From an uncultured Candidatus Binatia bacterium (GTDB lineage: Bacteria; Desulfobacterota; Binatia; Bin18; CBDCRK01), in assembly GCA_965220955.1 (NCBI GenBank), contig CBDCRK010000011.1:26773-90772 (forward strand): DNA of 64,000 nucleotides. Reading direction: 5' to 3'. Below are positions 6,952 to 34,310 of the stretch, piece after piece. Position numbers and translations under genes: made by a program. The notes beneath the pieces are model-generated. The model did no database searches. It was not told the origin of the DNA and worked only from the letters and a program-made list of their open reading frames with translations. The stretch's first letter is position 1. Every line of letters begins with the position of its first letter.

Positions 6952-12645
<5,694 letters not shown>

Positions 12646-21950: not shown

Positions 21951-24467
21951 ATGAACGAAGCCACCGCCCGTATCAAGATCAACAAACTGCTCGAAGCGGC
22001 CGGATGGCGTTTCTTTGCCGAAGGAGACAAACCCGCCAACATCTGCCTTGAACCAAGCGTCACCATCAAGGCGTCCGATCTCGACGCATTTGGTGACGAC
22101 TTCGATAAAACCGCCACGGGCTTCATCGACTTTCTCCTTCTCGACGCCAAGGGATTGCCGCTCATCGTTCTGGAGGCCAAGTCGGAGGACAAGAGTCCTC
22201 TGGTCGGCAAAGAGCAGGCCCGCAAGTACGCCCGCTCGCTGAACTGCCGTTTTGTCATTCTCTCGAACGGTAATCTGCACTACTTCTGGGATCTGGAACG
22301 CGGCAATCCCTACATCATCACCTCGTTCCCGACGCCCGACTCGGTGGACGGCTACCAAAAGATCACGCCCAACCCGCAGCGCCTGATCCATGAGCAGGTC
22401 GATGATGACTATATTATTCTCACCCAGCGGCCCGGCTATGCGTCCGAGGCGGCGTGGAAGAACGAAGACGAACGCCCCGGCTTCATCCAAGCCAACAGGT
22501 TACGCTTTCTGCGTCCCTATCAACTCAAGGCCATTCATGCCCTGCAACGCGCGGTACAGGACGGCAGCGACCGCTTTCTCTTCGAAATGGCGACCGGCAC
22601 GGGTAAGACACTCACCGCAGCCGCCGTCATCAAGCTGTTCCTGCGCTCGGGTAATTCCAGCCGTGTGCTCTTCCTGGTTGACCGGCTGGAATTGGAAGAT
22701 CAGGCCCACAAGGTTTTCAACACCCTGCTTTCGGCCGACTTCCAGACGGTCATCTATAAGGAGAGCCGCGACGACTGGCGACACGCCGAGATCGTTGTCA
22801 GTACCGTCCAATCTCTGCTGTTCAACAACAAGTACCAGCGGCTTTTCTCGCCTACGGATTTCGACTTGGTAATCTCCGACGAGGCGCACCGTTCGATTGG
22901 CGGCAACGCCCGCGCGGTGTTCGACTATTTCGTTGGCTACAAGCTTGGCCTGACCGCAACGCCCCGCGATTACTTAAGGGGCTTCGACCATACCAACCGC
23001 ACAACGGGGGACCTGCGCGAGGCCGAGCGGCGGCTGCTGCTGGACACCTACCGCACCTTCGGCTGCGAGAGCGGACAGCCGACCTTTCGCTACTCACTGC
23101 TCGACGGCGTAAAGGACGGCTTTCTGATCAACCCAACCGTGGTGGACGCGCGTACGGAAGTAACCACCGAACTCCTGTCCGAAGAGGGCTTTGTTGTGTT
23201 GTTCACAGACGACAGCGGCGAGGATAAGCAGGAAGCGTACAAGCAGCAGGAGTTCGAGAAACGCTTCTTTTCCGAAGCCACCAACCAACTGTTCTGCAAG
23301 ACCTTTCTTGAGAATGTGCTACGCGACCCGATCAGCGGCGAGGTCGGCAAGTCCATCATCTTTGCCGTCAGCCAGAACCACGCGGCCAAGCTGGCCCAGA
23401 CCCTCAATCAGATGGCCGACCGTATGTTTCCCGGCAAATACCAATCCGACTTCGCCGTACAGGTCACCTCGCAGATACCCGATGCCCAGCAGTTCACCAT
23501 TAACTTTGCCAATAACAACCTGCTCGGCTCGGGCAACTTCCTGCCCGACTACAAGACCAGCAAGGCTCGCATCTGCGTGACGGTCGGCATGATGACGACC
23601 GGCTACGACTGCACCGATATCCTGAATCTCGGCATGCTCCGGCCCATCTTCTCACCCACCGATTTCGTCCAGATCAAAGGACGCGGTACCCGCAGGCACA
23701 ACTTCCTCGACCAACTTTTCGACAACAACCTCAAGGAGGCCGTTGCCAAGCCGTGGAAAACCGCCTTCAAACTCTTCGATTTCTTTGGCAACTGTGAGTA
23801 CTTCGAGACCGAGTTCAACTACGACGAGGTCCTGAAGCTGCCCCGGCCTCGGGGTAAGGGTAGCGGCAACGGCCCTCAACTCTATGGAACCTACGAGCAT
23901 TTGGGGCGCGACATCCTTTCGATGGTCAAGGAAGAGACCATCGGCTACAAAGGAATGAAGATCGACCGAATGTTCTTTGAGAAGTTCGAGGATGCCGTAC
24001 GGAAAGACCAAATTATTGCCGAAGCCGTTATGGCTGGGCAGTGGGATCGGGTCATCGACTATGTCAACCGCGAAGTTTTCGACAAACCCGAGGAGTACTA
24101 TACCCTCGCCAAGCTGCGCCAAGCCGCCGCCGTGGACCGCCGCCTGACCCTGCGCGAGATTCTGGAGAAGGTCTTCGACCTCATTCCCCGCTTCAAGTCT
24201 AAGGACGAGTTACTGGAAGAAGAATTCGCCAAGTTTGTTGCCGACCACAAGCCCGAAGAGTTCGAGTCCATCCCAGCCCTCAAGACCTATTTCAAGGCTT
24301 ACGCCACCGACGGCTACACCCGCAACATCATCGATAAGCGGCAGTTCACCGACCTCGCAACGAATCCGGTCTTTTCCACCCGCGACTTCCGGGCTGTGCC
24401 AAAGAAATACCGCGCGCTTATTCCCGAGTATGTGAAAGACTATGTACCCCTCAACCAATTCGTCTGA
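21951..24467 (+). CDS. hsdR: Type I restriction enzyme R subunit (HsdR): N-terminal PD-(D/E)xK HSDR_N domain plus SF2 helicase
   Basis: HSDR_N (FIDFLLLD...LEAKSE), helicase motif I EMATGTGKT, DEAH box VISDEAHRS, motif VI QIKGRGTRR. Confidence 0.85.
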   Translation: MNEATARIKINKLLEAAGWRFFAEGDKPANICLEPSVTIKASDLDAFGDDFDKTATGFIDFLLLDAKGLPLIVLEAKSEDKSPLVGKEQARKYARSLNCRFVILSNGNLHYFWDLERGNPYIITSFPTPDSVDGYQKITPNPQRLIHEQVDDDYIILTQRPGYASEAAWKNEDERPGFIQANRLRFLRPYQLKAIHALQRAVQDGSDRFLFEMATGTGKTLTAAAVIKLFLRSGNSSRVLFLVDRLELEDQAHKVFNTLLSADFQTVIYKESRDDWRHAEIVVSTVQSLLFNNKYQRLFSPTDFDLVISDEAHRSIGGNARAVFDYFVGYKLGLTATPRDYLRGFDHTNRTTGDLREAERRLLLDTYRTFGCESGQPTFRYSLLDGVKDGFLINPTVVDARTEVTTELLSEEGFVVLFTDDSGEDKQEAYKQQEFEKRFFSEATNQLFCKTFLENVLRDPISGEVGKSIIFAVSQNHAAKLAQTLNQMADRMFPGKYQSDFAVQVTSQIPDAQQFTINFANNNLLGSGNFLPDYKTSKARICVTVGMMTTGYDCTDILNLGMLRPIFSPTDFVQIKGRGTRRHNFLDQLFDNNLKEAVAKPWKTAFKLFDFFGNCEYFETEFNYDEVLKLPRPRGKGSGNGPQLYGTYEHLGRDILSMVKEETIGYKGMKIDRMFFEKFEDAVRKDQIIAEAVMAGQWDRVIDYVNREVFDKPEEYYTLAKLRQAAAVDRRLTLREILEKVFDLIPRFKSKDELLEEEFAKFVADHKPEEFESIPALKTYFKAYATDGYTRNIIDKRQFTDLATNPVFSTRDFRAVPKKYRALIPEYVKDYVPLNQFV

Positions 24468-24498: not shown

Positions 24499-24927
24499 AT
24501 GATGAGGAAGGAGCAGAAGTATTCGGAATTGACCGGAAAGATCATCGGATGTGCCATGACGGTGCATTCTGCTCTGGGCAATGGTTTTCAGGAGGTGATG
24601 TATCAAAGAGCATTGGCAATCGAAATGGCGGATCAAGGTATTGCCTTCAGCCGTGAACATGAAATGCCCATTTATTACAAAGAGCAACAAGTAGGTACGA
24701 GACGGGTGGATTTTCTGGTAGACAATGTTGTCTGTGTGGAACTGAAGGCTGTTATCCACCTGGAAGACGTCCATCTGGCACAGGCCATCAATTATTTGGA
24801 GGCATACGATCTGGAGGTCGGGTTGCTCATCAATTTTGGCGCCAGAAGTCTTGAATTCAAAAGAGTGACCAACAAGAAGTTCAAGCAAAAGAATCAAGGC
24901 AATCCAAAAATCACAGTATATGCTTGA
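24499..24927 (+). CDS. GxxExxY protein (PD-(D/E)xK-like; commonly embedded in type I R-M loci)
   Basis: LGNGFQEVMYQRAL ... VDFLV ... VELKA signature of the GxxExxY family. Confidence 0.8.
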   Translation: MMRKEQKYSELTGKIIGCAMTVHSALGNGFQEVMYQRALAIEMADQGIAFSREHEMPIYYKEQQVGTRRVDFLVDNVVCVELKAVIHLEDVHLAQAINYLEAYDLEVGLLINFGARSLEFKRVTNKKFKQKNQGNPKITVYA

Positions 24928-26165
24928 CACCGCCACCAAACGCCGTATCGACACCGCCCGCGACATCCTTGTCGGCAAGGTGCCCGACCCCAAGAGCCAG
25001 GTCGAGCAGATCACCATCGCCCTGATCTACAAGTTCATGGACGACATTGACGCCGAGGCCGAAGAGCTGGGCGGCGAGCGCGCGTTCTTTGCTGGCGAGT
25101 TTGCCCGCTTTGGCTGGGCCAAGCTGATGCGCTCCGGCCTGGGCGGACACGAAACCCTGAACCTGTACGCCGAGGCTATTACCAGGATGCCGGAGAATCC
25201 CGGCATTGCGCCGCTGTTCCGTGACATCTTCAACAACGCCTATCTGCCGTATCGCGACCCCGAAACCCTGCGCGCCTTTCTCAAGATCATTGACGAGTTC
25301 ACCTACGATCACTCCGAACGCCTAGGGAGACGCCTTCGAATATCTCCTTTCTGTCCTCGGCTCGCAGGGCGACGCCGGGCAGTTCCGCACCCCGCGGCAC
25401 ATCATCGACTTTATTGTGGAAGTCATTGACCCGAAAAAGGACAACAGCGTGCTTGACCCGGCCTGCGGCACGGCCGGCTTCCTCATCTCGTCCTACAAGC
25501 ACATCCGCACGGCCAACACCGACGAGCACGGCCACAACACGCTCACGCCGGACGACCGGAGCCGCCTCGCCGCCAATTTCAAGGGTTACGATATCTCGCC
25601 CGACATGGTGCGCCTGTCGTTGGTGAACATGTATCTGCACGGTTTCGCCGCCCCGCACATCTACGAGTACGACACGCTCACCAGCGAGGACAAGTGGAAC
25701 GAGTACGCCGGCGTCATTCTGGCCAACCCGCCGTTCATGTCGCCCAAAGGCGGCATCCGGCCTCACAACCGCTTCTCCGTGCAGTCCAAACGCAGCGAGG
25801 TGCTATTCGTGGACTACATGGCCGAGCACCTGACGCCCAACGGTCGCGCTGGCATCATCGTACCCGAGGGCATCATCTTTCAGAGCCAGACCGCTTACAA
25901 GCAACTGCGCAAGATGTTGGTGGAGGAGTATCTTGTTGCCGTGGTGTCGCTGCCCGCAGGAGTGTTCCAGCCCTACTCCGGCGTCAAGACCTCGGTTTTG
26001 ATACTGGACAAGGCGCTAGCGAAGAAAACGGACTGCATCGCCTTTTTCAAGGTAGAGAACGACGGCTTCGACCTGGGCGCGCAACGCCGACCGATTGATA
26101 AGGACGACCTGCCGCAAGCCAGCGCCGAGATTGGTGAATACCTGCGCCGCCTGCGGGCAGGATCG
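24920..26165 (+). pseudogene. hsdM: Disrupted hsdM copy: about 96% nt identical to the 5' 1.25 kb of the intact hsdM-hsdS gene. Frameshift near 25324 and 3' truncation by a repeat element at about 26160
   Basis: Alignment by eye with 28143-29385. CGCCTAGGG versus CGCTTGGG gives a +1 frameshift. The reading frame ends in non-hsdM sequence after EYLRRLRAG. Confidence 0.7.
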
Positions 26166-26266
26166 GCGAATACCAGATTCGCCCCTACGCCCACTACGCA
26201 TTGTTGTGATAGGAAAGCGCAACCTTTCTCAAATTCTGATGTCCACTCAAGTGCAAACCGCTATAG
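26165..26266. repeat. About 100-bp repeat, copy 1 (GGCGAATACCAGATTCGCC ... GGAAAGCGCAACCTTTCTCAAATTCTGATGTCCACTCAAGTGCAAACCGCTATAG), replacing the 3' end of the hsdM copy
   Basis: Second copy at 34216-34310, about 90% identical. Shares the GGCGAAT-N5-ATTCGCC palindrome and the CCCCTAC motif with the 166-bp MITE, in opposite orientation. Confidence 0.5.
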
Positions 26267-26529: not shown

Positions 26530-26823
26530 ATGCGGATCATCAGCAAGAAGAGGTTGCGGGAGTGTTGGGAGCGGCATGCGGACGCCGAGGAGCCGCTGCT
26601 TGCCTGGTATAGGGAGGTCGTGAAGGAGGAGTGGGAGACGCCGGTACAGATAAAGGAGAAATACCCGAATGCCCGCATTCTCGGTGACAGCCGGGTAGTC
26701 TTCAACATCAAGGGTAACCATTATCGGCTCGTGGCGAAAATCAACTATCCGGGACGCATTGTCTATGTCCGCTTTGTGGGAACACATGCCGAATATGACC
26801 TCGTGAATGTTCTGGAGGTGTAA
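26530..26823 (+). CDS. higB: HigB-family type II toxin (RelE/ParE superfamily mRNA interferase)
   Basis: NHYRLVAKINYPGRIVYVRFVGTHAEYD matches the HigB toxin pattern. The toxin gene precedes the HTH antitoxin, as in HigBA. Confidence 0.7.
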   Translation: MRIISKKRLRECWERHADAEEPLLAWYREVVKEEWETPVQIKEKYPNARILGDSRVVFNIKGNHYRLVAKINYPGRIVYVRFVGTHAEYDLVNVLEV

Positions 26824-26824
26824 G

Positions 26825-27418
26825 ATGGCCACTGGAAAGATCAAGCCGGTCCGGACCAAGCAGGATTATGAGGACGCGCTGGCTCGGATCGACGCATTAA
26901 TGGATGCGACGCCCGGCAGCCCGGAGTTCGATGAGCTCGACATCCTCGTCGATCTGGTTGAACTCTATGAGAGCAAGCACGAGCCGATGGGCTATCCGAG
27001 TCCGCTCGCCGCGATCGAGTTCCGCATGGAGCAGGGCAATTTGCGACCGCGTGACCTTATCCCCTTCATCGGGAGCCGGGCAAAGGTGTCCGAGGTGCTC
27101 TCCGGCAAGCGTGCCCTCACCATGCCGATGGCACGGGCGCTCCATAAGCATCTGGGTATTCCGGCGGATGTATTGCTGCGCGATCCGGATGTAGACCTGG
27201 ACGATTCGCTTGCCGACATCAATTGGAGTCGGTTTCCTGTCAAGGACATGGCGAAGCTGAGCTGGATTCGAGATGGTCTCAACCTGGCGGAGCACGCCGA
27301 GGCGATTATGCGCGATTTGATTGACCGGGCGGGGGGGGCCGGATGTCGCCTGTGCTGCCCTCTACCGGAAGAACGATCATATGCGTGCAAACGCCAAGGT
27401 GGACGCTTATGCCCTTAA
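26825..27418 (+). CDS. higA: HigA-like XRE-family HTH antitoxin. Probably the N-terminal part of a frameshifted HTH + ImmA/IrrE fusion
   Basis: HTH VSEVLSGKRALTMPMARALHKHLGIPADVLL. Overlaps the start of higB by 17 nt. The frame is lost at the G8 tract 27331-27338. Confidence 0.65.
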   Translation: MATGKIKPVRTKQDYEDALARIDALMDATPGSPEFDELDILVDLVELYESKHEPMGYPSPLAAIEFRMEQGNLRPRDLIPFIGSRAKVSEVLSGKRALTMPMARALHKHLGIPADVLLRDPDVDLDDSLADINWSRFPVKDMAKLSWIRDGLNLAEHAEAIMRDLIDRAGGAGCRLCCPLPEERSYACKRQGGRLCP

Positions 27419-28052
27419 GGCGTGGTGCTGGCAGGTTCTAGCGACGGGGAACGAGAACTCGCCAAAGACAGAGTACATACCTGGCACCGTGATGCCGCAC
27501 TTTCTCAGGGAGGTTGCGCAGTTGAGTTCGTTCGAAGACGGTCCGCGACTGGCCAGGGAGGTGCTGGCAAAACATGGCATCGCGCTAGTGAGCGTGCCGC
27601 ATCTGCCGAGGACCTACCTCGACGGAGCGGCGCTCCGGCTCAGGGATGGGCGGCCAGTGGTCGGGTTGACCCTGCGCTACGACCGGATCGACAATTTCTG
27701 GTTCTGCCTGTTGCACGAACTGGCACACGTGGGTCGCCACCTGGACAACAACCAGGGCAATGCCTTTGTCGATGACCAGACGTTACGTGGGGTGGAAGGC
27801 AGGCGGGAAGACCCGAGAGAGGTGCAGGCCGACGAATGGGCGACCGAGGCCCTCGTTCCTAGGGCGGCTTGGGAAGCGAGCGCGGCACGGGAGCGTCCGA
27901 CACCCATGGCGGTCATGAATCTGGCCCATGCACTGCAGGTCCATCCGGCGATCATCGCCGGCAAGATTCGATATGAGCACCAGAACTATCGGCTGCTGTC
28001 GCAGTTTGTGGGCACCGGCGAGGTCCGGCGGCAGCTTGGCATAATGGTGTGA
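27321..28052 (+). CDS. ImmA/IrrE-family (COG2856/DUF955) Zn metallopeptidase domain. TTG-initiated as drawn; more likely the C-terminal part of the HigA-like protein
   Basis: HEXXH motif LLHELAHVGRH. Joining to the upstream ORF needs a single G deletion in the G8 run. Confidence 0.65.
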   Translation: MTGRGGPDVACAALYRKNDHMRANAKVDAYALKAWCWQVLATGNENSPKTEYIPGTVMPHFLREVAQLSSFEDGPRLAREVLAKHGIALVSVPHLPRTYLDGAALRLRDGRPVVGLTLRYDRIDNFWFCLLHELAHVGRHLDNNQGNAFVDDQTLRGVEGRREDPREVQADEWATEALVPRAAWEASAARERPTPMAVMNLAHALQVHPAIIAGKIRYEHQNYRLLSQFVGTGEVRRQLGIMV

Positions 28053-28085: not shown

Positions 28086-28137
28086 TTAATCCTACAAATC
28101 CCAAAAATCACTTAATCCTACAAATCCCAAAAATCAC
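28086..28137. repeat. 26-bp tandem duplication (TTAATCCTACAAATCCCAAAAATCAC x2) immediately upstream of hsdM-hsdS
   Basis: Seen directly. The upstream hsdM copy carries a single copy of the AATCCAAAAATCAC-like unit. Confidence 0.6.
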
Positions 28138-28142
28138 AGTAT

Positions 28143-30614
28143 ATGCTTGACACCGCTACCAAACGCCGCATCGACACCGCCCGCGACATCCTCGTGGGCA
28201 AAGTCCCCGACCCCAAGAGCCAGGTCGAGCAGATCACCATTGCGCTGATCTACAAGTTCATGGACGACATTGACGCCGAGGCCGAAGAGCTGGGCGGCGA
28301 GCGCGCGTTCTTTGCTGGCGAGTTTGCCCGCTACGGTTGGGCCAAGCTGATGCGCTCCGGCCTGGGCGGACACGAAACCCTGAACCTGTACGCCGAGGCT
28401 ATTACCAGGATGCCGGAGAATCCCGGCATTGCGCCGCTGTTCCGTGACATCTTCAACAACGCCTATCTGCCCTACCGCGACCCCGAGACCCTACGCGCCT
28501 TTCTCAAGGTCATTGACGAGTTCACCTACGATCACTCCGAACGCTTGGGAGACGCCTTCGAATATCTCCTTTCTGTCCTCGGCTCGCAGGGTGACGCCGG
28601 GCAGTTCCGCACCCCGCGGCACATCATCGACTTTATTGTGGAAGTCATTGATCCGAAAAAGGACGATACCGTGCTTGACCCAGCTTGTGGCACCAGCGGG
28701 TTCCTGATCTCGTCCTACAAGCACATCCGCACGGCCAACACCGGCGGACACGGCCATGACACGCTGACGCCGGACGAGCGGGGCCGACTCGCCGCCAACT
28801 TCGAGGGCTACGACATCTCGCCCGACATGGTGCGCCTGTCGCTGGTGAACATGTATCTGCACGGCTTTGCCGCCCCGCACATCTACGAGTACGACACGCT
28901 CACCAGCGAGGACAAGTGGAACGAGTACGCCGATGTGATCCTGGCCAACCCGCCGTTCATGTCACCCAAAGGCGGTATCCGGCCCCACAACCGCTTCTCC
29001 GTGCAGTCCAAACGCAGCGAGGTACTATTCGTTGATTACATGGCCGAGCACCTGACGCCCACGGGCCGCGCCGGCATCATCGTACCCGAAGGCATCATCT
29101 TTCAGAGCCAGAACGCCTACAAGCAGCTGCGCAAAATGCTGGTCGAGGAGTTTCTTGTTGCCGTGGTCTCGCTGCCCGCAGGAGTGTTCCAGCCCTACTC
29201 CGGGGTCAAGACCTCGATTCTGATTCTCGACAAATCGCTGGCAAAGAAGACCAACCGTATCGCCTTCTTCAAGGTCGAACACGACGGCTACGACCTGGGC
29301 GCCCAGCGCCGGGCGATTGACAAAAACGACCTGCCGCAGGTACAAGCGGGACTCGCTGAATATCTGCGTCGGGTGCGGGCGGGCGAAGCACTAGGCGACT
29401 TCGAGCCGACGTATGGGCTCATCGTCGAGAAGGGGAAATTAGCCGCGAACGAGGAATACAACCTCAGCGGGGAGCGGTACAAGGAACGAGAAACCCAATA
29501 TCTCACAATCGACCCCAAATGGCCGATGGTGGCGTTGGGGGAGGTCATTCAAGATAAGCCGAGGAACGGATACTCTGGAAAACCTGTTCCCTATCCAACT
29601 GACCTAAAAGTTCTTTCGCTGAGTGCCACAACGTCAGGAACGCTGGACATCTCTCAGCACAAGTATCTCGACGAGAATATCTCTCTTGACTCACCGTGCC
29701 GATGCCGGCGGGGTGACATTTATCTTCAGCGTGGCAATACCAAAGAGTTGGTTGGCACCGCTGCGCTCTTCGACGTTGATGAATCAAACCTTGTTTATCC
29801 AGACCTCATGATTCGTGTGCGGGCGGATGAAGGGAAGATTACGAGTCAATTTCTCCTATGTGTTCTTCAGAGCGATTCCGTTCGAGAATACCTGACTCGG
29901 AACGCGGTCGGGTCGGCCGGAAGCATGCCGAAGATCAACCAAAAGATCGTTGAGCAGATTCCAATACCCCTCCCACCGCTGGAAGTGCAGCGGGAAATCG
30001 TGGCGGAGATAGAGGGCTACCAGAAGGTGATAGACGGCGCTCGGGCGGTGGTCGAAAATTATAGGCCGCATATCCCCATTGATCCCGCTTGGCCGCTGGT
30101 AGCGTTGGGGGAGGTGCTGACTCTGCAAAGGGGACACGACCTTCCAAAGAAAAATTTTGTTGAGGGCAAATATCCTGTTGTTGGTTCAAACGGTATTATT
30201 GGATACCACAATGAATTTAAGTATTCTGGTCCAGGCGTGGTTACTGGGAGAAGTGGAACAATTGGTAAAGTTTGTTTCATTAAAGAAAATTACTGGCCTC
30301 ATAATACCTCCCTATTTGTTAAGGATTTCAAAGGTAACAGCAAAAAATATATTTTCTTTTTACTTGAATCACTAGATTTAAGAAGCTTGGGAGAAAGAAC
30401 CTCCGCCGTTCCTTCACTTGATAGAAATAATGCGCATAGGCTAAATGTATATTTACCACCACTCGAAACCCAAACCCAAATTGTAGTCGAAATCGAGGCC
30501 GAGCAGTCCCTCGTCAGTGCCAACCGTGAACTGATCGAGCGTTTCGAGAAGAAGATTCAGGCTGCTATCTCCCGCATCTGGGGTGAAGATACGACAGGCT
30601 CTCCAGAAGCATAG
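28143..30614 (+). CDS. hsdM: Fused Type I R-M methyltransferase-specificity protein: HsdM N6-adenine MTase followed by two HsdS target-recognition domains
   Basis: HsdM_N domain, FRTPRHII, catalytic NPPF (LANPPFMSPKGG). C-terminal half has two TRDs, each followed by the conserved LPPLEVQ / LPPLETQ helical spacer. Confidence 0.85.
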   Translation: MLDTATKRRIDTARDILVGKVPDPKSQVEQITIALIYKFMDDIDAEAEELGGERAFFAGEFARYGWAKLMRSGLGGHETLNLYAEAITRMPENPGIAPLFRDIFNNAYLPYRDPETLRAFLKVIDEFTYDHSERLGDAFEYLLSVLGSQGDAGQFRTPRHIIDFIVEVIDPKKDDTVLDPACGTSGFLISSYKHIRTANTGGHGHDTLTPDERGRLAANFEGYDISPDMVRLSLVNMYLHGFAAPHIYEYDTLTSEDKWNEYADVILANPPFMSPKGGIRPHNRFSVQSKRSEVLFVDYMAEHLTPTGRAGIIVPEGIIFQSQNAYKQLRKMLVEEFLVAVVSLPAGVFQPYSGVKTSILILDKSLAKKTNRIAFFKVEHDGYDLGAQRRAIDKNDLPQVQAGLAEYLRRVRAGEALGDFEPTYGLIVEKGKLAANEEYNLSGERYKERETQYLTIDPKWPMVALGEVIQDKPRNGYSGKPVPYPTDLKVLSLSATTSGTLDISQHKYLDENISLDSPCRCRRGDIYLQRGNTKELVGTAALFDVDESNLVYPDLMIRVRADEGKITSQFLLCVLQSDSVREYLTRNAVGSAGSMPKINQKIVEQIPIPLPPLEVQREIVAEIEGYQKVIDGARAVVENYRPHIPIDPAWPLVALGEVLTLQRGHDLPKKNFVEGKYPVVGSNGIIGYHNEFKYSGPGVVTGRSGTIGKVCFIKENYWPHNTSLFVKDFKGNSKKYIFFLLESLDLRSLGERTSAVPSLDRNNAHRLNVYLPPLETQTQIVVEIEAEQSLVSANRELIERFEKKIQAAISRIWGEDTTGSPEA

Positions 30615-30675
30615 GACTTAACGGGAGCAATTGAATCTGGAACACCCAGCGTTCAACTGGTAAGGAGGACAAGAA

Positions 30676-31728
30676 ATGATTTTAGTTTTTGTAGGTGCGG
30701 GAGGCTCAGCCGCTGTTGATCCAGATCAGTATCCGACCACTGTCGAGTTCTTCAAGCGTCTTCCCAAGGAAATAACACAGCAACCCCTTTTCACCCTCGT
30801 CCGTGAATTCCTAATGACGCAGAAGGAGGATGGACAGCCTATCGATATTGAAGAAGTCCTGTGGAGCCTTGATAAACTTCAAGAGTATTTCTCGTTGTCC
30901 CGCGCTACCCATACTATAGAGGGATGGATCATGGCGAAGAATCGTCTTAACCAATTGGATGGCAACGCGCTTCCTGGAGGGAGTAACCCGCTTTTGGGAG
31001 GGATAGACAACATCAGCGTTAATCACTTAACACCGCTACGAGATAGCATCAATGCCAAGGTACATGAATTCTATGTGAAGCGTCCCGACGAGAACAAGTT
31101 GTCGGATTGGGTTAACCTCCTCCGGCATATCGAAGGGCTTGACCCGGTTATTGAGATTTTCACAACGAACTATGATCTGGTGCTGGAAACAGCCGTGAAT
31201 AGAGCCAAAATAAGGACGACAACAGGTCGAGAGTTCGATGGTTTGCATACGTTTTTGAATACCGCCCTCTGGGATGAACCCAGCGGACCCCCTAAGTATC
31301 ACGGACGGCTGACCAAACTACACGGGTCCATGGACTGGCAACGCAGAGGCAATACAATTCTTTGTAGCGACCTTTATACCGGAAACCCCCAACAACACTC
31401 AATCTTGTATCCAGGATTCAAAGGAGAGCCCAACGAGGAGCCCTTCATCAAATTCCATGAACATCTACGAGCTGTGGTACGCGAAGCAGGGGCAGCGTTT
31501 TTTATCGGTTTTGCCTTTCGCGACGACTATATTAACACAATCCTCTCTGGGCTCCGTCCGAAGACTCCCAAATACGTCATTGACAAAGAAGACTCACCTC
31601 CCGCTCTTGCTTTCCTAGATGGATGCAAGCATTTCAGCAATGGGCTTACGGTAGGGGCGATCCAGGACTGCATAAAAAGCCTAGCTGCCGTCATTTTTCA
31701 GGAGTTGAAACAACATTTAAAACCGTAG
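30676..31728 (+). CDS. SIR2-like (SIR2_2, PF13289-type) standalone 350-aa protein, a candidate NAD+-consuming defense effector
   Basis: N-terminal Rossmann GxG (ILVFVGAGGSAAVD), FTTNYDLVLE, KLHGSMDW and C-terminal FIGFAFRDDYIN motifs typical of the defense-associated SIR2_2 family. Stop is followed by hairpin 31729-31754. Confidence 0.7.
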   Translation: MILVFVGAGGSAAVDPDQYPTTVEFFKRLPKEITQQPLFTLVREFLMTQKEDGQPIDIEEVLWSLDKLQEYFSLSRATHTIEGWIMAKNRLNQLDGNALPGGSNPLLGGIDNISVNHLTPLRDSINAKVHEFYVKRPDENKLSDWVNLLRHIEGLDPVIEIFTTNYDLVLETAVNRAKIRTTTGREFDGLHTFLNTALWDEPSGPPKYHGRLTKLHGSMDWQRRGNTILCSDLYTGNPQQHSILYPGFKGEPNEEPFIKFHEHLRAVVREAGAAFFIGFAFRDDYINTILSGLRPKTPKYVIDKEDSPPALAFLDGCKHFSNGLTVGAIQDCIKSLAAVIFQELKQHLKP

Positions 31729-31754
31729 GTCGGGTTAGCGGAGCGTAACCCGAC
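31729..31754 (+). terminator. Stem-loop (GTCGGGTTA-GCGGAGCG-TAACCCGAC) immediately after the SIR2 stop; no U-tract
   Basis: 9-bp perfect stem seen in sequence. Confidence 0.3.
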
Positions 31755-31878
31755 AGCCGCCTCCTTCACCGTATGGAATGCGGCCGGTAGGTTCCGTGGT
31801 CGATAATGGGCATTGTTGGATATGGATTTTTTATTTACACTGTATCCAGTTCCAATTCTAGTCAAGGAGGTTTGGACC

Positions 31879-32082
31879 ATGGCCAGAGACACTTACAAAT
31901 ATCACTTCAAAAAGGGCAACAAGATTGTTCATACGGGCATAACCAACGATCTCGAATGGCGCGAGCAAGAGCACAAAGAGGCCTTTGGGGAAAGCGGCCA
32001 CATCAAGAAAGGTAGGTTACGTGACGACTCTCGACGCCGCCCGGAAATGGGAAAGCGAACAAGCAAAAAAGGGAAAGCCTAG
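31879..32082 (+). CDS. Short protein with a GIY-YIG-like N-terminal motif (YhbQ/UPF0213-like)
   Basis: YKYHF..GNKIVHTGITNDLEWREQEH resembles the GIY...YIG...R..EH core. Only 68 aa, so the C-terminal catalytic Glu region looks truncated. Confidence 0.3.
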   Translation: MARDTYKYHFKKGNKIVHTGITNDLEWREQEHKEAFGESGHIKKGRLRDDSRRRPEMGKRTSKKGKA

Positions 32083-32194
32083 CAGAAGGGGTTGATAAAG
32101 AATTAGTCAATATACATGCCTGACCCCTAAGTCTCTACAATCGGGAAACCGAATCGGCAGTCCTGATCACGACATATCGGCCCGACCCTGCACG

Positions 32195-32470
32195 GTGGGT
32201 CAACTGGCGTACAAGGAGGCAGAGATGATTCCATTCAATAAGTGCCCGGTGTGTAGTGGAGAAGTCGTTGCGAAGCAGACCGAAAAGCTCCTCCGTGGGG
32301 GTGTTAATTTCGCTACGGTGACCGTCCCTGCGGAAGTCTGTCTGCGCTGTGGAGAGCATCTGTACTCTCCCGAGACGATTCGTCTGTTCGAGCAAGTCCG
32401 CCGAAAGCTCAGCGCTCAAGACGTGGAAGGATTTGAACCCTTGGGAAGATCGTTCCGCATTCCGAACTAG
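32195..32470 (+). CDS. YgiT-type zinc-ribbon protein (MqsA-antitoxin-like N-domain), standalone
   Basis: CPVCSGE ... VCLRCGEHLYSPE paired CxxC motifs. Preceded by an AGGAGG RBS. Confidence 0.5.
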   Translation: MGQLAYKEAEMIPFNKCPVCSGEVVAKQTEKLLRGGVNFATVTVPAEVCLRCGEHLYSPETIRLFEQVRRKLSAQDVEGFEPLGRSFRIPN

Positions 32471-32479
32471 GGGTGGCGG

Positions 32480-32767
32480 GTGAAGAGGCTAAAGCGGAGA
32501 CGGAGGAGGCTAAAAGTTAGAGACGCGATAAAGCCCATGAGGAGAATCGCTGTGAAATACGCTATCCTCATCGAAAGAACCGACAACGGCTACTCCGCTT
32601 ATGCGCCCGATTTACCCGGTTGCATAGCCGCCGCAGACACAAAAATCGAAGTGGAAGAACTGATCCGCGAAGCTCTCAGCCTACATCTCGAATCACTCCG
32701 CGAACACGGCGACCCAATCCCCGAACCGCAAACTACCGCCACCCTGATTGAGGTCCCACCCGTTTAA
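32480..32767 (+). CDS. HicB-like antitoxin N-domain (UPF0150/DUF1902-like). Start probably at MRRIAVKYA (about 32537)
   Basis: KYAILIERTDNGYSAYAPDLPGCIAAADTKIEVEELIREALSLHLESLREHGDPIPEP matches the HicB N-terminal RNase-H-like fold pattern. No HicA partner found. Confidence 0.5.
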   Translation: MKRLKRRRRRLKVRDAIKPMRRIAVKYAILIERTDNGYSAYAPDLPGCIAAADTKIEVEELIREALSLHLESLREHGDPIPEPQTTATLIEVPPV

Positions 32768-32855
32768 GCGTTGCCGCCCAAAGTCCCAACTTTCATCCAC
32801 CACCGCCAGCAACCCGGCTAGGCCTCGTCACCAAAATCGGATCGACCCCGCCCGG

Positions 32856-32930
32856 GTCAATGCCAACCGCAAATTGATCGAGGGCTTCGAGAAGAAGATT
32901 CAGGATGTCATTGTTCCTAGCAGGGGATAA
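32856..32930 (+). pseudogene. hsdS: Orphan duplicate of the hsdS 3' terminus (encodes ANRKLIEGFEKKIQDVI). No TRD upstream
   Basis: About 80% nt identity to 30520-30580, the end of hsdM-hsdS (ANRELIERFEKKIQAAIS). Confidence 0.5.
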
Positions 32931-33014: not shown

Positions 33015-33980
33015 CTACTCCACGGTTTCGTATGCGGTCGGCAGGTTATCCGGCTGGTAGTCGTTCTTAGGATTGTCCCGGCGCTTGAATACGCCTTTGT
33101 GGATCTTCGCTCCTGCCGGGATCTTGCGGACCTCTTCGCCGCGAAAAATCCAGAAACCCGTAAACGACTGGTGCAACTTGTCATGTGGGTTGCCTACGCG
33201 ATCCGCAAGCCTATCCTCTTCTACCCGCATCCCGCACGCTACCGCCTTGCCGAGCATCCAATGCAAGGCGATGTTCGACAACCCGCGTTCGCTGTACCCG
33301 CCGCCTACGTCCGCATGGACGCCCGCGAACCAGACCTGCTCAAGGGTCTGATTCGTCCCTACCCTGCGCTCGTCCCAGAGAAAAGGCGGAAAATCGTTTC
33401 GCTTCTCGTCTATGGCCAGGGCGTGGAAGCCGTGGACAACCTCGGGGTTGAGCCGCGCGTCATGAAAACGCTTGCCCGCGTTCAGTGCCAACGACGCTAC
33501 GGTGTCCCACACGCCGATGAAGTGGACCGGACAGGCACGGCCGAACGTCTTGCGGAAGCCGCGCGCAAGGTCGGTGTTTTTGGGGGTGTTGTAAACCTTC
33601 GAGGCGTATTCGACAAGGTTCCCGGCGTCCGCGCGGAGCAGTCCGCATTTGTAAAGCATCCCGGCCAGCGAACGCACGGTGAACGCGCCACGGCTGAACC
33701 CGAACAGATACACGCGATCTCCGCTTTCGTAACAGCCCATCAGGTAGCGATAGGCGTCCTCGACGTTTTTCTGGAGCCCGTAGCCGGTCGCTTGGTCGGC
33801 CAGGGATGTCAGTTTTCCACTCTCTTCGTGGTATTCCCAGCCGCCCGTGCCTACGCCCGGGTCGTAGTACGCGACCTGGGACGCGTCTTTTACGGCCAGA
33901 TCGTAGGTTTCCACAACGTTCGTGTTGTTGCGTCCGTATTCGTTGCCGGTTCCGTCGCAGCAAACGACGATGTTCTTCAT
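33015..33980 (-). CDS. DUF2235 alpha/beta-hydrolase (T6SS Tle1 phospholipase-like catalytic domain) protein
   Basis: VVCCDGTGN, GxSxG-like LFGFSRGAFTVRSLAGM, GVWDTV and HADVGGGY motifs. The opposite-strand 355-aa ORF is antisense noise. Confidence 0.75.
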   Translation of the reverse strand: MKNIVVCCDGTGNEYGRNNTNVVETYDLAVKDASQVAYYDPGVGTGGWEYHEESGKLTSLADQATGYGLQKNVEDAYRYLMGCYESGDRVYLFGFSRGAFTVRSLAGMLYKCGLLRADAGNLVEYASKVYNTPKNTDLARGFRKTFGRACPVHFIGVWDTVASLALNAGKRFHDARLNPEVVHGFHALAIDEKRNDFPPFLWDERRVGTNQTLEQVWFAGVHADVGGGYSERGLSNIALHWMLGKAVACGMRVEEDRLADRVGNPHDKLHQSFTGFWIFRGEEVRKIPAGAKIHKGVFKRRDNPKNDYQPDNLPTAYETVE

Positions 33981-34139
33981 ACAATTCTCTTGGATTAGCA
34001 AGACTGTCGGATTGCGCTACGCTAATCCGACCTATGGGCTGCCGGTAGTCCATCTCGTATAGCGTGTTCTCAATGTCAAGACTACTATAATGCCGGCTTA
34101 TAGCATCTTTCATTTGGGTAGGCGTCTGTTGATGATCCT

Positions 34140-34310
34140 GCTCCCTGTTTTGTAGGGGCGATCCTGTCGGCCATCCTGGCCGCGTGATCGCCCACTGTGC
34201 AAGGTCGCGGGCGGGCCGGCGAATACGAGATTCGCCCCTACGCTTTGTGGTGATAGGAAAGCGCAACCTTTCTCAAATTCTGATGTCCACTCAAGTGCAA
34301 ACCGCTATAG
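34140..34310. repeat. Diverged, inverted relative of the 166-bp MITE fused to copy 2 of the 100-bp repeat (perfect GGCGAATACGAGATTCGCC palindrome at 34218-34236)
   Basis: The reverse complement reads ...GTAGGGGCGAATCTCGTATTCGCC...GGGCGATCAC...CGCCCCTACA..., matching the MITE motif order. 34216-34310 is about 90% identical to 26165-26266. Confidence 0.45.

What the first reader, a model, noticed from the sequence alone, without database searches (positions are those of the whole stretch)
30615..32930. A standalone SIR2-like gene and three small genes are inserted into the 3' end of hsdS, bracketed by a duplicated hsdS terminus
Seen in sequence: the fused hsdM-hsdS gene ends at 30614 with the conserved C-terminal helix ...SANRELIERFEKKIQAAIS. 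An orphan 57-nt copy of that terminus, with no TRD upstream, sits 2.2 kb downstream at 32856-32912 (ANRKLIEGFEKKIQDVI). Between the two copies lie four genes. The first is a 350-aa protein that is SIR2_2-type over its whole length (GAGGS Rossmann loop, FTTNYDLVLE, KLHGSMDW, FIGFAFRDDYIN). Its stop abuts a 9-bp-stem hairpin. The other three are small: a truncated GIY-YIG-like ORF, a YgiT/MqsA-type zinc-ribbon ORF and a HicB_N-like ORF. Established knowledge: SIR2_2 domains are NAD+-depleting effectors in Thoeris, DSR, SIR2-HerA and SPARSA systems. Latent toxins such as PrrC and RloC are known to sit inside hsd loci. Inference: the geometry looks like a cassette integrated site-specifically into the hsdS 3' end while carrying a replacement terminus. 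Neighbouring genes suggest no recognisable sensor partner (SLOG, TIR, HerA, Argonaute, STAND) for this SIR2. It may therefore be an R-M-coupled SIR2 module not described before, possibly kept in check by the small ZnF/HicB-like genes.
Basis: partly seen in the sequence, partly recalled or inferred. Interest (0 to 1): 0.72.

Follow-up and report, generated by a model that had tools for sequence, protein, structure and literature searches.

The report
SIR2 gene wired into type I restriction operon
The 350-residue SIR2 protein is not a recent insert but a conserved last gene of a type I restriction-modification operon found in several uncultivated bacterial phyla, most likely an NAD+-destroying back-up to restriction, while the small genes and the extra hsdS end beside it are debris of toxin-antitoxin modules and of recombination.

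Summary
An intact SIR2_2 gene (30676-31728) follows the fused hsdM-hsdS gene. A decayed second hsdS 3' end lies at 32800-32930.

The same hsdR-PDDEXK_3-hsdMS-SIR2 order, with a 37-61 nt gap before SIR2, occurs in at least 10 other loci (Binatia, Latescibacterota, Chloroflexota MAGs). SIR2 identity tracks hsdR identity (r = 0.79). So SIR2 is an old operon member, not a cassette newly inserted here.

Four more distant SIR2_2 genes also sit directly after an hsdS gene.

SIR2 survives under purifying selection where the hsd genes were deleted or decayed.

The fold is closest to the SIR2 of SIR2-HerA systems, but no HerA is present.

The small genes vary between loci:
- a frameshifted GIY-like gene;
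- a YgiT antitoxin beside the last 30 codons of its DUF4258 toxin;
- a HicB-like antitoxin with no HicA.

The hairpin at the SIR2 stop is a conserved REP element. Extra hsdS ends recur in four other loci.

A Sir2-type I R-M link was noted computationally in 2012, but no experimental work on it turned up in the paper searches run here. Moderate interest.

The parts
21951..24467 (+). hsdR (838 aa), first gene of the operon
   Evidence: ORF. PADLOC REase_I E = 3e-58. 72-90% aa identity to the hsdR of related loci.
24499..24927 (+). PDDEXK_3 (GxxExxY-type) gene, conserved between hsdR and hsdMS
   Evidence: PF13366 E = 3.4e-39. Same position in L001, L003, L082, L163, L168, L170 and L173.
24920..26161 (+). 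hsdM pseudogene: a second copy of the first ~1240 nt of hsdM, frameshifted and truncated
   Evidence: 91-96% identical to 28127-29386 (D1 and D2). Split into two ORFs. Homology to the hsdM of L082 ends at 26161.
26530..28052 (+). PD-Lambda-2-like module lying between the two hsdM copies: HigB-type A gene, and a B gene split into two ORFs
   Evidence: PD-Lambda-2_A E = 5e-39. PD-Lambda-2_B halves E = 1e-52 and 3e-82.
28143..30614 (+). Fused hsdM-hsdS gene (823 aa, two target-recognition domains)
   Evidence: Pfam N6_Mtase and Methylase_S x2. PADLOC MTase_I E = 2e-96 and Specificity_I E = 1e-51.
30453..30576 (+). Conserved C-terminal region (CCR) of the active hsdS part. A recombination breakpoint lies at its start.
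   Evidence: nhmmer E = 7e-33. L081 is 99.5% identical from 30488 onward but has a different TRD2 upstream.
30615..30675 (+). 61-nt spacer with ribosome-binding site AAGGAGG (30662-30668). No terminator-like site.
   Evidence: Sequence. Terminator scan. The spacer is 37-61 nt in all related operons.
30676..31728 (+). SIR2_2-type protein (350 aa), the predicted NAD+-consuming effector
   Evidence: Pfam and PADLOC. Invariant G7-A8-G9, S11, N165, H216. AF2 pLDDT 88.4. Best PDB matches are the SIR2 of SIR2-HerA.
31725..31754 (+). REP-type element (GTAG plus a 9-bp stem) overlapping the SIR2 stop codon. It marks the boundary between the conserved operon and the variable region.
   Evidence: The same element lies within -13 to +16 nt of the SIR2 stop in ten other SIR2 loci (L082, L163, L164, L165, L002, L083, L170/171, L166/167) and at +111 nt in L001. 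0 hits in 2.2 Mb of unrelated loci. Fold -16.2 kcal/mol.
31879..32093 (+). GIY-YIG-like 71-codon gene, frameshifted near 32010
   Evidence: Three-frame translation against the intact L082, L163 and L169 copies. The intact L082 copy hits PF01541 only weakly (E = 0.0025).
32136..32228 (+). Remnant (last 30 codons) of a DUF4258 toxin gene
   Evidence: 90% aa identity to the C-terminus of the intact 104-aa gene in L083, which is PF14076 E = 5.7e-20.
32225..32470 (+). YgiT/MqsA-type zinc-ribbon antitoxin (81 aa); its partner toxin is lost
   Evidence: TIGR03831 E = 6.7e-9. Paired with DUF4258 in L083. Follows SIR2 directly in L170.
32552..32767 (+). HicB-like (UPF0150) antitoxin-type gene (71 aa) with no HicA
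   Evidence: PF15919 E = 1.5e-11. About 80% aa identity to L002 and L082. Start set by alignment. Single copy in the window.
32800..32930 (+). Orphan, decayed hsdS 3' end (CCR plus tail and stop), with no TRD upstream
   Evidence: nhmmer E = 1.4e-16. Alignments. Frame change.
33015..34001 (-). Tle1-like (DUF2235) alpha/beta-hydrolase gene at the right edge of the variable region
   Evidence: PF09994 E = 1.5e-75. A homologous gene lies in the same relative place in L168.
34006..34035 (-). Second copy of the REP element, in inverted orientation

Best explanation
The SIR2 gene is the last gene of an ancient, vertically co-inherited type I restriction-modification operon: hsdR - PDDEXK_3 - fused hsdMS - sir2. 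It is transcribed with hsdMS and ends in a REP stem-loop.

The protein is a defence-type SIR2 with a Rossmann GAGGS loop and catalytic N165 and H216. Once switched on, it most likely hydrolyses NAD+ and aborts infection, giving a second layer behind restriction.

It is only 350 residues long and has no sensor domain of its own. Every characterised SIR2 effector has a sensor domain or partner. I therefore take the R-M complex (HsdMS and/or the HsdR motor) as the most likely source of the activating signal, as in PrrC-EcoprrI or Ronin. The signal would be positive, for example restriction blocked by an anti-restriction protein or a stalled complex. Simple release of a constitutively toxic enzyme does not fit.

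Shown here: family membership, catalytic residues, conserved synteny and spacing, co-divergence with hsdR and hsdM, fast evolution, allele swapping together with hsdS, and purifying selection.

Inferred: NADase activity, abortive infection, and coupling to the R-M complex.

The small downstream genes are relics of toxin-antitoxin modules. The orphan hsdS end is a scar of recombination at the conserved hsdS 3' region. Neither is part of the mechanism.
For: Identity:
- PF13289 49.4 bits; PADLOC SIR2 E = 1e-23.
- N165 and H216 are invariant in 37 homologues.
- AF2 model pLDDT 88.4. It matches the SIR2 of SIR2-HerA over ~320 of 350 residues (Foldseek E = 3e-12, TM 0.57-0.59). The profile hits 8w9l at E = 4e-18, aligning TTNYD and KLHGS.

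Operon membership:
- hsdMS is followed after 37-61 nt by SIR2 in the window, L001, L003, L082, L163, L168, L169, L170 and L207. In L006 the gap is ~290 nt.
- No terminator-like site lies in the spacer.
- SIR2 identity correlates with hsdR identity (r = 0.79) and hsdM identity (r = 0.60).

Coupling to hsdS:
- Four more distant SIR2_2 genes lie directly after hsdS: L007 (SIR2 44% identical; type I genes of another family), L017 (71 nt), L030 (117 nt) and L107 (265 nt). In L080 the gap is 900 nt.
- hsdS and SIR2 are swapped together between two strains that are 98.5-99% identical in the flanks (L207 vs L082: SIR2 66% nt). The breakpoints lie in hsdM and at the REP.
- About 200 clusters at 50% identity, almost all 330-360 aa, so the family has no sensor domain of its own.

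Precedent: PrrC and Ronin.
Against: - SIR2 is retained intact after loss of the neighbouring hsd genes in at least three lineages. L002, L009 and L172 share a deletion from hsdR codon ~21 to the hsdS end. L164 and L166/167 keep only hsd debris. L004 keeps only the spacer.
- dN/dS between the R-M-less pair L002-L009 is 0.33 at dS 0.37, like R-M-linked pairs at 0.25-0.32. This argues against an obligate cis partner and against simple inhibition by Hsd proteins.
- No HsdS-SIR2 or HsdM-SIR2 fusion protein was seen among the listed homologues (best 120 and best 150 of the two searches).
- More distant family members (33-47% identity) mostly lack any R-M neighbour.
- No biochemical or phage data exist.
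- The converse survey, of how many hsdMS operons of this type lack SIR2, could not be run.
Confidence: 0.45

Rival explanations
1. Autonomous effector. The SIR2 protein senses infection by itself, for example through its own oligomeric state or a host metabolite. It sits in the hsd operon only for co-expression and co-transfer. The R-M proteins play no part in its activation.
For: SIR2 is retained under purifying selection after independent loss of the hsd genes. Many family members at 33-47% identity have no R-M neighbour. Variants with a C-terminal TPR array occur in an unrelated, plasmid-like context (L174). SIR2 of SIR2-HerA systems forms dodecamers on its own (PDB entry titles).
Against: A 350-aa SIR2-only protein has no recognisable sensor domain. 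All characterised SIR2 effectors use a sensor domain or partner (established knowledge: ThsA-SLOG, DSR2, SIR2-HerA, SIR2-APAZ/pAgo). The position directly after hsdS, on the same strand, was reached by the window's family and by four more distant SIR2_2 genes, which is more specific than island co-location. hsdS and SIR2 are exchanged as one block.
Confidence: 0.3
2. First reader's model. A SIR2-plus-small-genes cassette integrated site-specifically into the 3' end of hsdS in this genome, bringing a replacement hsdS terminus. The ZnF and HicB-like proteins keep SIR2 in check.
For: Direct hsdS-end repeats bracket SIR2 and the small genes here and in L003, L083 and L168. In L056 another insert is bracketed the same way. 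SIR2 keeps an hsdS 3' end or hsd debris upstream where the hsd operon has decayed (L164, L166/167). In 8 of about 16 close loci the gene just downstream of SIR2 is antitoxin-like: HicB-like, DUF1902 or YgiT.
Against: The junction is conserved and SIR2 co-diverges with hsdR and hsdM across phyla, so any insertion was ancient. No integrase or att-like core was seen. In its 5' half the orphan end resembles other hsdS alleles rather than the active gene, so it is not a simple duplicate of it. The ZnF gene came with a DUF4258 toxin whose remnant is still there. Intact copies of the HicB types pair with HicA (L168, L169). The small genes differ in kind and order and are absent in L001, L003, L006, L009 and L166. 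HicB-like genes also sit between hsdR and PDDEXK_3 in L163 and L170.
Confidence: 0.12
3. Recombination platform. The conserved hsdS 3' region acts as portable homology. Circles or fragments carrying one copy integrate by homologous (Campbell-type) recombination, stacking defence and toxin-antitoxin genes behind hsdS. SIR2 is simply the oldest such passenger.
For: Multiple CCR copies bound single genes or gene sets. Examples are L168 (CCR-SIR2-CCR-two ORFs-CCR) and L056 (CCR-ORF197-CCR-SIR2). The orphans in the window, L003 and L083 start right at the TRD/CCR boundary. A live breakpoint lies at the CCR start in L081. In L083 a foreign ORF replaces TRD2.
Against: Only five loci show it. Most operons have no orphan. 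Orphans are closest to CCRs of their own lineage, which also fits local duplication or gene conversion. REP elements, not CCRs, flank most small-gene blocks. In the window, the hsdM pseudogene and the orphan end could be the two ends of one older hsdMS gene split by a 6.6-kb insertion.
Confidence: 0.2

Closest known systems
PrrC anticodon nuclease in the EcoprrI type Ic locus (and RloC)
   Same: A latent suicide effector gene is embedded in a type I hsd operon next to hsdS. The link is conserved across taxa and is thought to back up restriction (PMC3506569).
   Different: The effector here is a SIR2 NAD+-consuming enzyme, not an ABC-ATPase/HEPN anticodon nuclease. PrrC alone is overtly active, whereas this SIR2 is stably kept without hsd genes. 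No trigger is known.
Ronin (RonA plus HsdMS decoy; bioRxiv 10.1101/2023.04.06.535777)
   Same: A cell-death effector is genetically tied to HsdM and HsdS and is fired by anti-restriction proteins.
   Different: RonA is a 61-aa membrane protein and Ronin lacks hsdR. Here hsdR is present, M and S are fused, and the effector is a soluble SIR2. RonA is always linked to hsdMS; this SIR2 is not.
SIR2 of SIR2-HerA (Nezha / GAO_19) systems
   Same: Closest fold and sequence (8wld, 8w9l, 8j4u): full-length match including the helical insertion, and the same TTNYD and HGS motifs.
   Different: 17-20% identity. No HerA gene in the window or in any related locus. The neighbouring translocase is HsdR (SF2), not a HerA/FtsK hexamer.
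Sir2 genes linked to type I R-M systems, noted by Makarova, Anantharaman, Aravind and Koonin 2012 (PMC3506569)
   Same: The same kind of association: a Sir2 superfamily gene inside type I R-M operons, read as a toxin coupled to immunity.
   Different: That was a general comparative note, made before SIR2 NADase activity in defence was known. This family, its fused hsdMS partner, the REP boundary, the R-M-loss derivatives and the TPR fusions are not described there.
Thoeris ThsA, DSR1/DSR2, SPARSA SIR2-APAZ
   Same: SIR2_2-type catalytic domain. Weak to moderate PADLOC hits (Aga_SIR2 E = 6e-22, ThsA E = 2e-4).
   Different: No SLOG domain, no long sensor region, no APAZ domain, and no TIR or pAgo neighbour.

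Membership tests
SIR2_2 (PF13289) defence-type sirtuin-like enzymes | Pfam model above its gathering score | tested here: met
   49.4 bits against a cut-off of 24.5, residues 160-307.
SIR2_2 (PF13289) defence-type sirtuin-like enzymes | N-terminal Rossmann glycine loop and catalytic Asn and His | tested here: met
   G7, A8, G9, S11, N165 and H216 are invariant in 37 sequences. They align to TTNYD and LHGS of 8w9l.
SIR2_2 (PF13289) defence-type sirtuin-like enzymes | NAD+ hydrolase activity | not testable with these tools
   Needs enzyme assays.
SIR2-HerA (Nezha / GAO_19) | SIR2 subunit of that structural type | tested here: met
   Foldseek E = 3.4e-12, TM 0.57-0.59, ~320 aligned columns. Profile E = 4e-18.
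SIR2-HerA (Nezha / GAO_19) | Adjacent HerA/FtsK-type ATPase gene | tested here: not met
   No HerA in the window island nor in the annotated neighbours of 12 related loci.
Thoeris | ThsA with a SLOG domain, plus a ThsB TIR gene | tested here: not met
   The protein is SIR2-only. PADLOC ThsA E = 2.4e-4 over the SIR2 part only. No TIR neighbour.
DSR1/DSR2 | Single large protein (~1000 aa) with SIR2 plus a sensor region | tested here: not met
   350 aa. Family members are 330-360 aa.
SPARSA (SIR2-APAZ plus short pAgo) | APAZ domain and an adjacent short Argonaute | tested here: not met
   Aga_SIR2 models match the SIR2 part only. No pAgo in any locus.
R-M-embedded suicide effectors (PrrC/RloC/Ronin logic) | Effector gene conserved inside or next to a type I hsd operon across taxa | tested here: met
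   At least 10 operons in three phylum-level lineages, plus four more distant SIR2_2 genes directly after hsdS.
R-M-embedded suicide effectors (PrrC/RloC/Ronin logic) | Effector held latent by, or activated through, the Hsd complex; fired by anti-restriction factors | not testable with these tools
   Needs genetics and biochemistry. Retention after hsd loss argues against pure inhibition by Hsd proteins.
Site-specifically integrated cassette (integron- or island-like) | Integrase or recombinase and a defined att core at the junctions | tested here: not met
   No recombinase among the Pfam- or PADLOC-scanned ORFs of the island, 21.9-36.4 kb. Junctions share only hsdS homology. No formal attC search was run.
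Site-specifically integrated cassette (integron- or island-like) | Empty target site in close relatives | tested here: inconclusive
   All sampled relatives were found through SIR2, so loci without it could not be seen.
MqsA/YgiT antitoxins | YgiT zinc ribbon. Full MqsA also has a C-terminal HTH domain and a partner toxin. | tested here: inconclusive
   TIGR03831 35.9 bits (cut-off 20.2) is met. The MqsA full-length models are below cut-off. The partner here is a truncated DUF4258 gene, not MqsR.
HicAB toxin-antitoxin | HicB-type antitoxin with an adjacent HicA toxin | tested here: not met
   PF15919 45 bits is met, but there is no HicA in the window. Homologous HicB types pair with HicA in L168 and L169.

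The most novel reading that the evidence does not exclude
The type I R-M complex itself is the sensor for the SIR2 enzyme. When restriction is blocked by a DNA-mimic anti-restriction protein, or the HsdR motor stalls, the complex switches on SIR2, much as HerA does for its SIR2. NAD+ is then destroyed. This would be a PrrC/Ronin-type guard that uses NAD+ depletion. Alleles carrying a C-terminal TPR array would be versions that acquired their own sensor.
Probability: 0.3. Interest if true: 0.7.

Novelty: new variant of a known kind. Interest (0 to 1): 0.5.

Why it matters
Restriction-modification is the commonest bacterial defence, and phages routinely disarm it. Only a few back-up systems wired to type I enzymes are understood (PrrC, Ronin, and PARIS acting in trans).

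This is a widespread family: about 200 clusters at 50% identity, mostly in uncultivated phyla. If it couples a type I enzyme to NAD+ depletion, it would add a new effector class to that logic. It would also give a compact four-gene operon in which the trigger can be tested directly.

The loci also show, at nucleotide resolution, how a defence operon diversifies:
- hsdS and SIR2 are swapped as one block between near-identical strains;
- the restriction genes are lost repeatedly while the effector is kept;
- TPR arrays are fused on;
- recombination scars accumulate at the conserved hsdS end and at a REP element.

Tried and rejected
- Rfam scan of the whole window: no family at gathering score.
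- Promoter and terminator scans: no more sites than in shuffles, and nothing between hsdMS and SIR2.
- The hairpin is not unusually stable compared with shuffles (z = -1.25). Its significance comes from conservation.
- Viral contigs: only generic SIR2_2 relatives at 35% identity or less, so the family is not phage-borne.
- Metagenome scan: only five family members.
- The 100-nt repeat R (26164-26266 / 34217-34310) matches none of the fetched loci and remains unexplained.
- Cluster look-up gave no names or taxon for the window proteins.
- I first thought the 73-aa ORF after HicB in L082 was HicA. Pfam shows it is another UPF0150/HicB-like protein.
- I tested whether TPR-fused SIR2 alleles go with loss of the R-M genes. 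Four of five do (L009, L172, L173, L174), but L207 has hsdR and a 655-aa hsdMS. One-sided Fisher p is about 0.06 by my own arithmetic, with non-independent cases. It is a trend only.
- The iterative HMM search with full mafft timed out and was redone in a lighter form.
- An earlier copy-number check for HicB used the wrong frame and was repeated.


Full report
**What is in the window**

The region belongs to a 14-kb island (about 21.9-36.4 kb). It is flanked upstream by housekeeping genes: BipA, an MFS transporter, an amidohydrolase and an OPT transporter. Its content, in order, is as follows:

- hsdR (21951-24467)
- a PDDEXK_3 gene (24499-24927)
- a frameshifted, truncated copy of the first 1240 nt of hsdM (24920-26161; 91-96% identical to the intact copy)
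- a PD-Lambda-2-like module (HigB-type A gene; B gene split in two; 26530-28052)
- the intact fused hsdM-hsdS gene (28143-30614)
- SIR2 (30676-31728)
- three small genes
- an orphan hsdS end
- a Tle1-like hydrolase gene on the other strand
- two Phd-PIN pairs with a DUF4325 (STAS-like) gene on the other strand between them

No SLOG, TIR, HerA, Argonaute or STAND gene is present.

**Check of the observation**

- The 57-nt repeat is real: 84% identity. A profile of the conserved C-terminal region (CCR) of hsdS from eight loci finds 32800-32913 at E = 1.4e-16.
- The orphan runs from the TRD/CCR boundary to a stop at 32930. It has a 1-nt gap and a frame change.
- In its 5' half the orphan resembles the consensus and the L081 allele rather than the active gene. 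It is therefore a relic of another hsdS allele, not a fresh duplicate.
- SIR2 scores above the Pfam cut-off. It keeps GAGGS, N165 and H216, all invariant in 37 homologues.

**The small genes are debris**

- The 'GIY-YIG-like' ORF is a 71-codon gene that is intact in L082, L163 and L169. Here it is frameshifted near 32010. The intact form matches GIY-YIG only weakly.
- The zinc-ribbon gene starts at ATG 32225. It overlaps, by ATGA, the last 30 codons of a DUF4258 toxin gene. The intact DUF4258-YgiT pair is in L083.
- The HicB-like gene is 71 codons and has no HicA. Homologous HicB types pair with HicA in L168 and L169.
- Across about 16 close loci these small genes (two HicB types, a DUF1902-like 57-mer, YgiT, GIY71 plus ORF66, ORF61) occur in different orders and combinations. 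They are absent from L001, L003, L006, L009 and L166.
- HicB-like genes also lie between hsdR and PDDEXK_3 in L163 and L170.
- In eight loci the gene just after SIR2 is antitoxin-like. This is worth noting, but no single partner is conserved.
- The window's source and sequencing method are unknown, so the frameshifts could in part be assembly errors.

**SIR2 is an old operon member**

- A homologue search gave 456 relatives. A full scan of 1.84 billion representatives gave 201 clusters at E <= 1e-30, nearly all 330-360 aa.
- hsdR-(PDDEXK_3)-hsdMS-SIR2 occurs with a 37-61 nt gap in L001 (Binatia), L003 (Latescibacteria), L082, L163, L168, L169, L170 and L207. In L006 (Chloroflexota) the gap is about 290 nt.
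- hsdR is 72-90% identical between loci, hsdM 80-92%, and SIR2 only 39-74%. SIR2 identity nevertheless correlates with hsdR identity (r = 0.79).
- dN/dS for SIR2 is 0.25-0.33, which is fast for a protein under purifying selection.
- More distant SIR2_2 genes also lie directly after hsdS: L007 (SIR2 44% identical; type I genes of a different family), L017, L030 and L107. L080 has one 900 nt after hsdMS.
- Makarova et al. 2012 had already noted that Sir2 enzymes are linked to type I R-M systems.

**Loss of the R-M genes with SIR2 kept**

- L002, L009 and L172 carry the first ~64 nt of hsdR joined to the last codons of hsdS, 45 nt before SIR2.
- L164 and L166/167 keep short fragments of R, M and S in order, upstream of an intact SIR2. 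L166 lies inside a urease cluster.
- L004 keeps only the spacer.
- These R-M-less SIR2 genes nest among R-M-linked relatives: L164-L163 81% and L166-L169 75%. The losses were therefore independent.
- dN/dS between L002 and L009 is 0.33 at dS 0.37.
- Some alleles carry a C-terminal TPR array: L172, L173, L174 and L207, with a short one in L009. Most lack an intact R-M, but L207 does not.

**Recombination**

- L081 has the same SIR2 (99.5% nt) but a different TRD2. The breakpoint is at window 30488, the start of the CCR.
- L207 and L082 come from one sample. They are 98.5% identical in hsdR and 98.9% identical over 8.6 kb downstream. They are only 66% identical in SIR2 and differ in hsdS. The breakpoints lie in hsdM and at the REP after SIR2. 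hsdS and SIR2 are thus exchanged as one block.
- Extra CCR copies occur in L003 (after SIR2 and a membrane-protein ORF) and L083 (after SIR2 and three ORFs).
- L168 has the order CCR-SIR2-CCR-two ORFs-CCR. L056 has CCR-ORF197-CCR-SIR2, with SIR2 cut by an IS.
- Orphans are closest to CCRs of their own lineage.
- In the window, the hsdM pseudogene and the orphan end could also be the two ends of one older hsdMS gene split by a 6.6-kb insertion. I cannot decide between these histories.

**The hairpin**

- The element GTAGGTCGG(A/G)TTAGCG(A/G)AGCGTAA(T/C)CCGAC consists of GTAG plus a 9-bp stem, the REP design.
- It overlaps or abuts the SIR2 stop (-13 to +16 nt) in the window and ten other SIR2 loci, and lies at +111 nt in L001. 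It is absent from 2.2 Mb of unrelated loci. It recurs at the far end of several small-gene arrays.
- It marks where synteny breaks.

**Structure and mechanism**

- The AF2 model (pLDDT 88.4) matches the SIR2 subunit of SIR2-HerA complexes over nearly its full length. No HerA is present anywhere.
- All characterised SIR2 effectors have a sensor, and the only conserved neighbours here are Hsd proteins. I therefore favour a back-up NADase that receives its signal from the R-M complex (0.45). An autonomous effector is the main rival (0.30).
- Retention after R-M loss argues against simple inhibition by Hsd proteins.

**Verdict**

This is a new variant of a known kind: suicide effectors embedded in type I R-M operons. 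The Sir2 link itself was noted in 2012; no experimental work on it turned up in the paper searches run here.

Noticed in passing
window 24920-26161 and 28127-29386: The first ~1240 nt of hsdM, plus the last 24 nt of the PDDEXK_3 gene, are present twice at 91-96% identity. The upstream copy is frameshifted and ends exactly where repeat R begins. Together with the orphan hsdS end, it may be the remains of an older hsdMS gene.
   Followed up: partly
window 26530-28052: A PD-Lambda-2-like module lies between the two hsdM copies. It has a HigB-type A gene and a HigA/M78-peptidase B gene. The B gene is split into two overlapping ORFs (frameshift or assembly error). No C gene was seen.
   Followed up: partly
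window 26164-26266 and 34217-34310: A ~100-nt direct repeat (96%) made of a short hairpin (GGCGAATAC.AGATTCGCC) plus a 73-nt unique part. Each copy lies upstream of a toxin-antitoxin-type module. It has no Rfam match and no copy in any fetched locus.
   Followed up: partly
window 28086-28137: A perfect 26-nt tandem duplication (TTAATCCTACAAATCCCAAAAATCAC x2) at the left junction of the second hsdM copy.
   Followed up: no
L002 9894-10000, L009 9894-10000, L172 ~9890-10000: The same deletion joins codon ~21 of hsdR to the last codons of hsdS. This leaves SIR2 behind the hsdR promoter. The SIR2 of L172 is no closer to those of L002 and L009 than R-M-linked ones are, so the junction may have arisen twice or SIR2 was later exchanged.
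   Followed up: partly
L172 10001-11635, L173 8001-9815, L174 8001-9407, L207 4865-6391: SIR2 alleles with a C-terminal TPR array (468-604 aa). L172 sits at the same chromosomal site as L082, L163 and L207 but has lost the R-M genes.
   Followed up: partly
L207 versus L082 (same sample): The flanks are 98.5-99% identical, yet hsdS plus SIR2 are replaced by a divergent allele (SIR2 66% nt). The PDDEXK_3 gene is replaced by a Phd-PIN pair. The L207 hsdMS is only 655 aa, apparently with one target-recognition domain.
   Followed up: partly
L083 3685-5100 and 8724-10358: A 471-aa ORF with no family match occupies the place of TRD2 between the hsdMS body and the conserved hsdS end. After the downstream orphan hsdS end comes an FRG-TPR protein that matches the PADLOC candidate PDC-S15.
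   Followed up: partly
L007 5182-9738: The hsdS gene upstream of SIR2 appears split by a ~3-kb insert. The insert carries a 563-aa ORF on the opposite strand that looks like a group II intron reverse transcriptase. This was judged by eye only.
   Followed up: no
window 33015-34001 (-) and L168 14992-15957 (-): A Tle1-like (DUF2235) alpha/beta-hydrolase gene lies at the far edge of the variable region in two loci. Its role there is unknown.
   Followed up: no
window 28143-30614 and all related loci: HsdM and HsdS are fused into one 815-863 aa polypeptide while HsdR stays separate. This architecture is conserved in the family and is unusual for classical type I systems.
   Followed up: no
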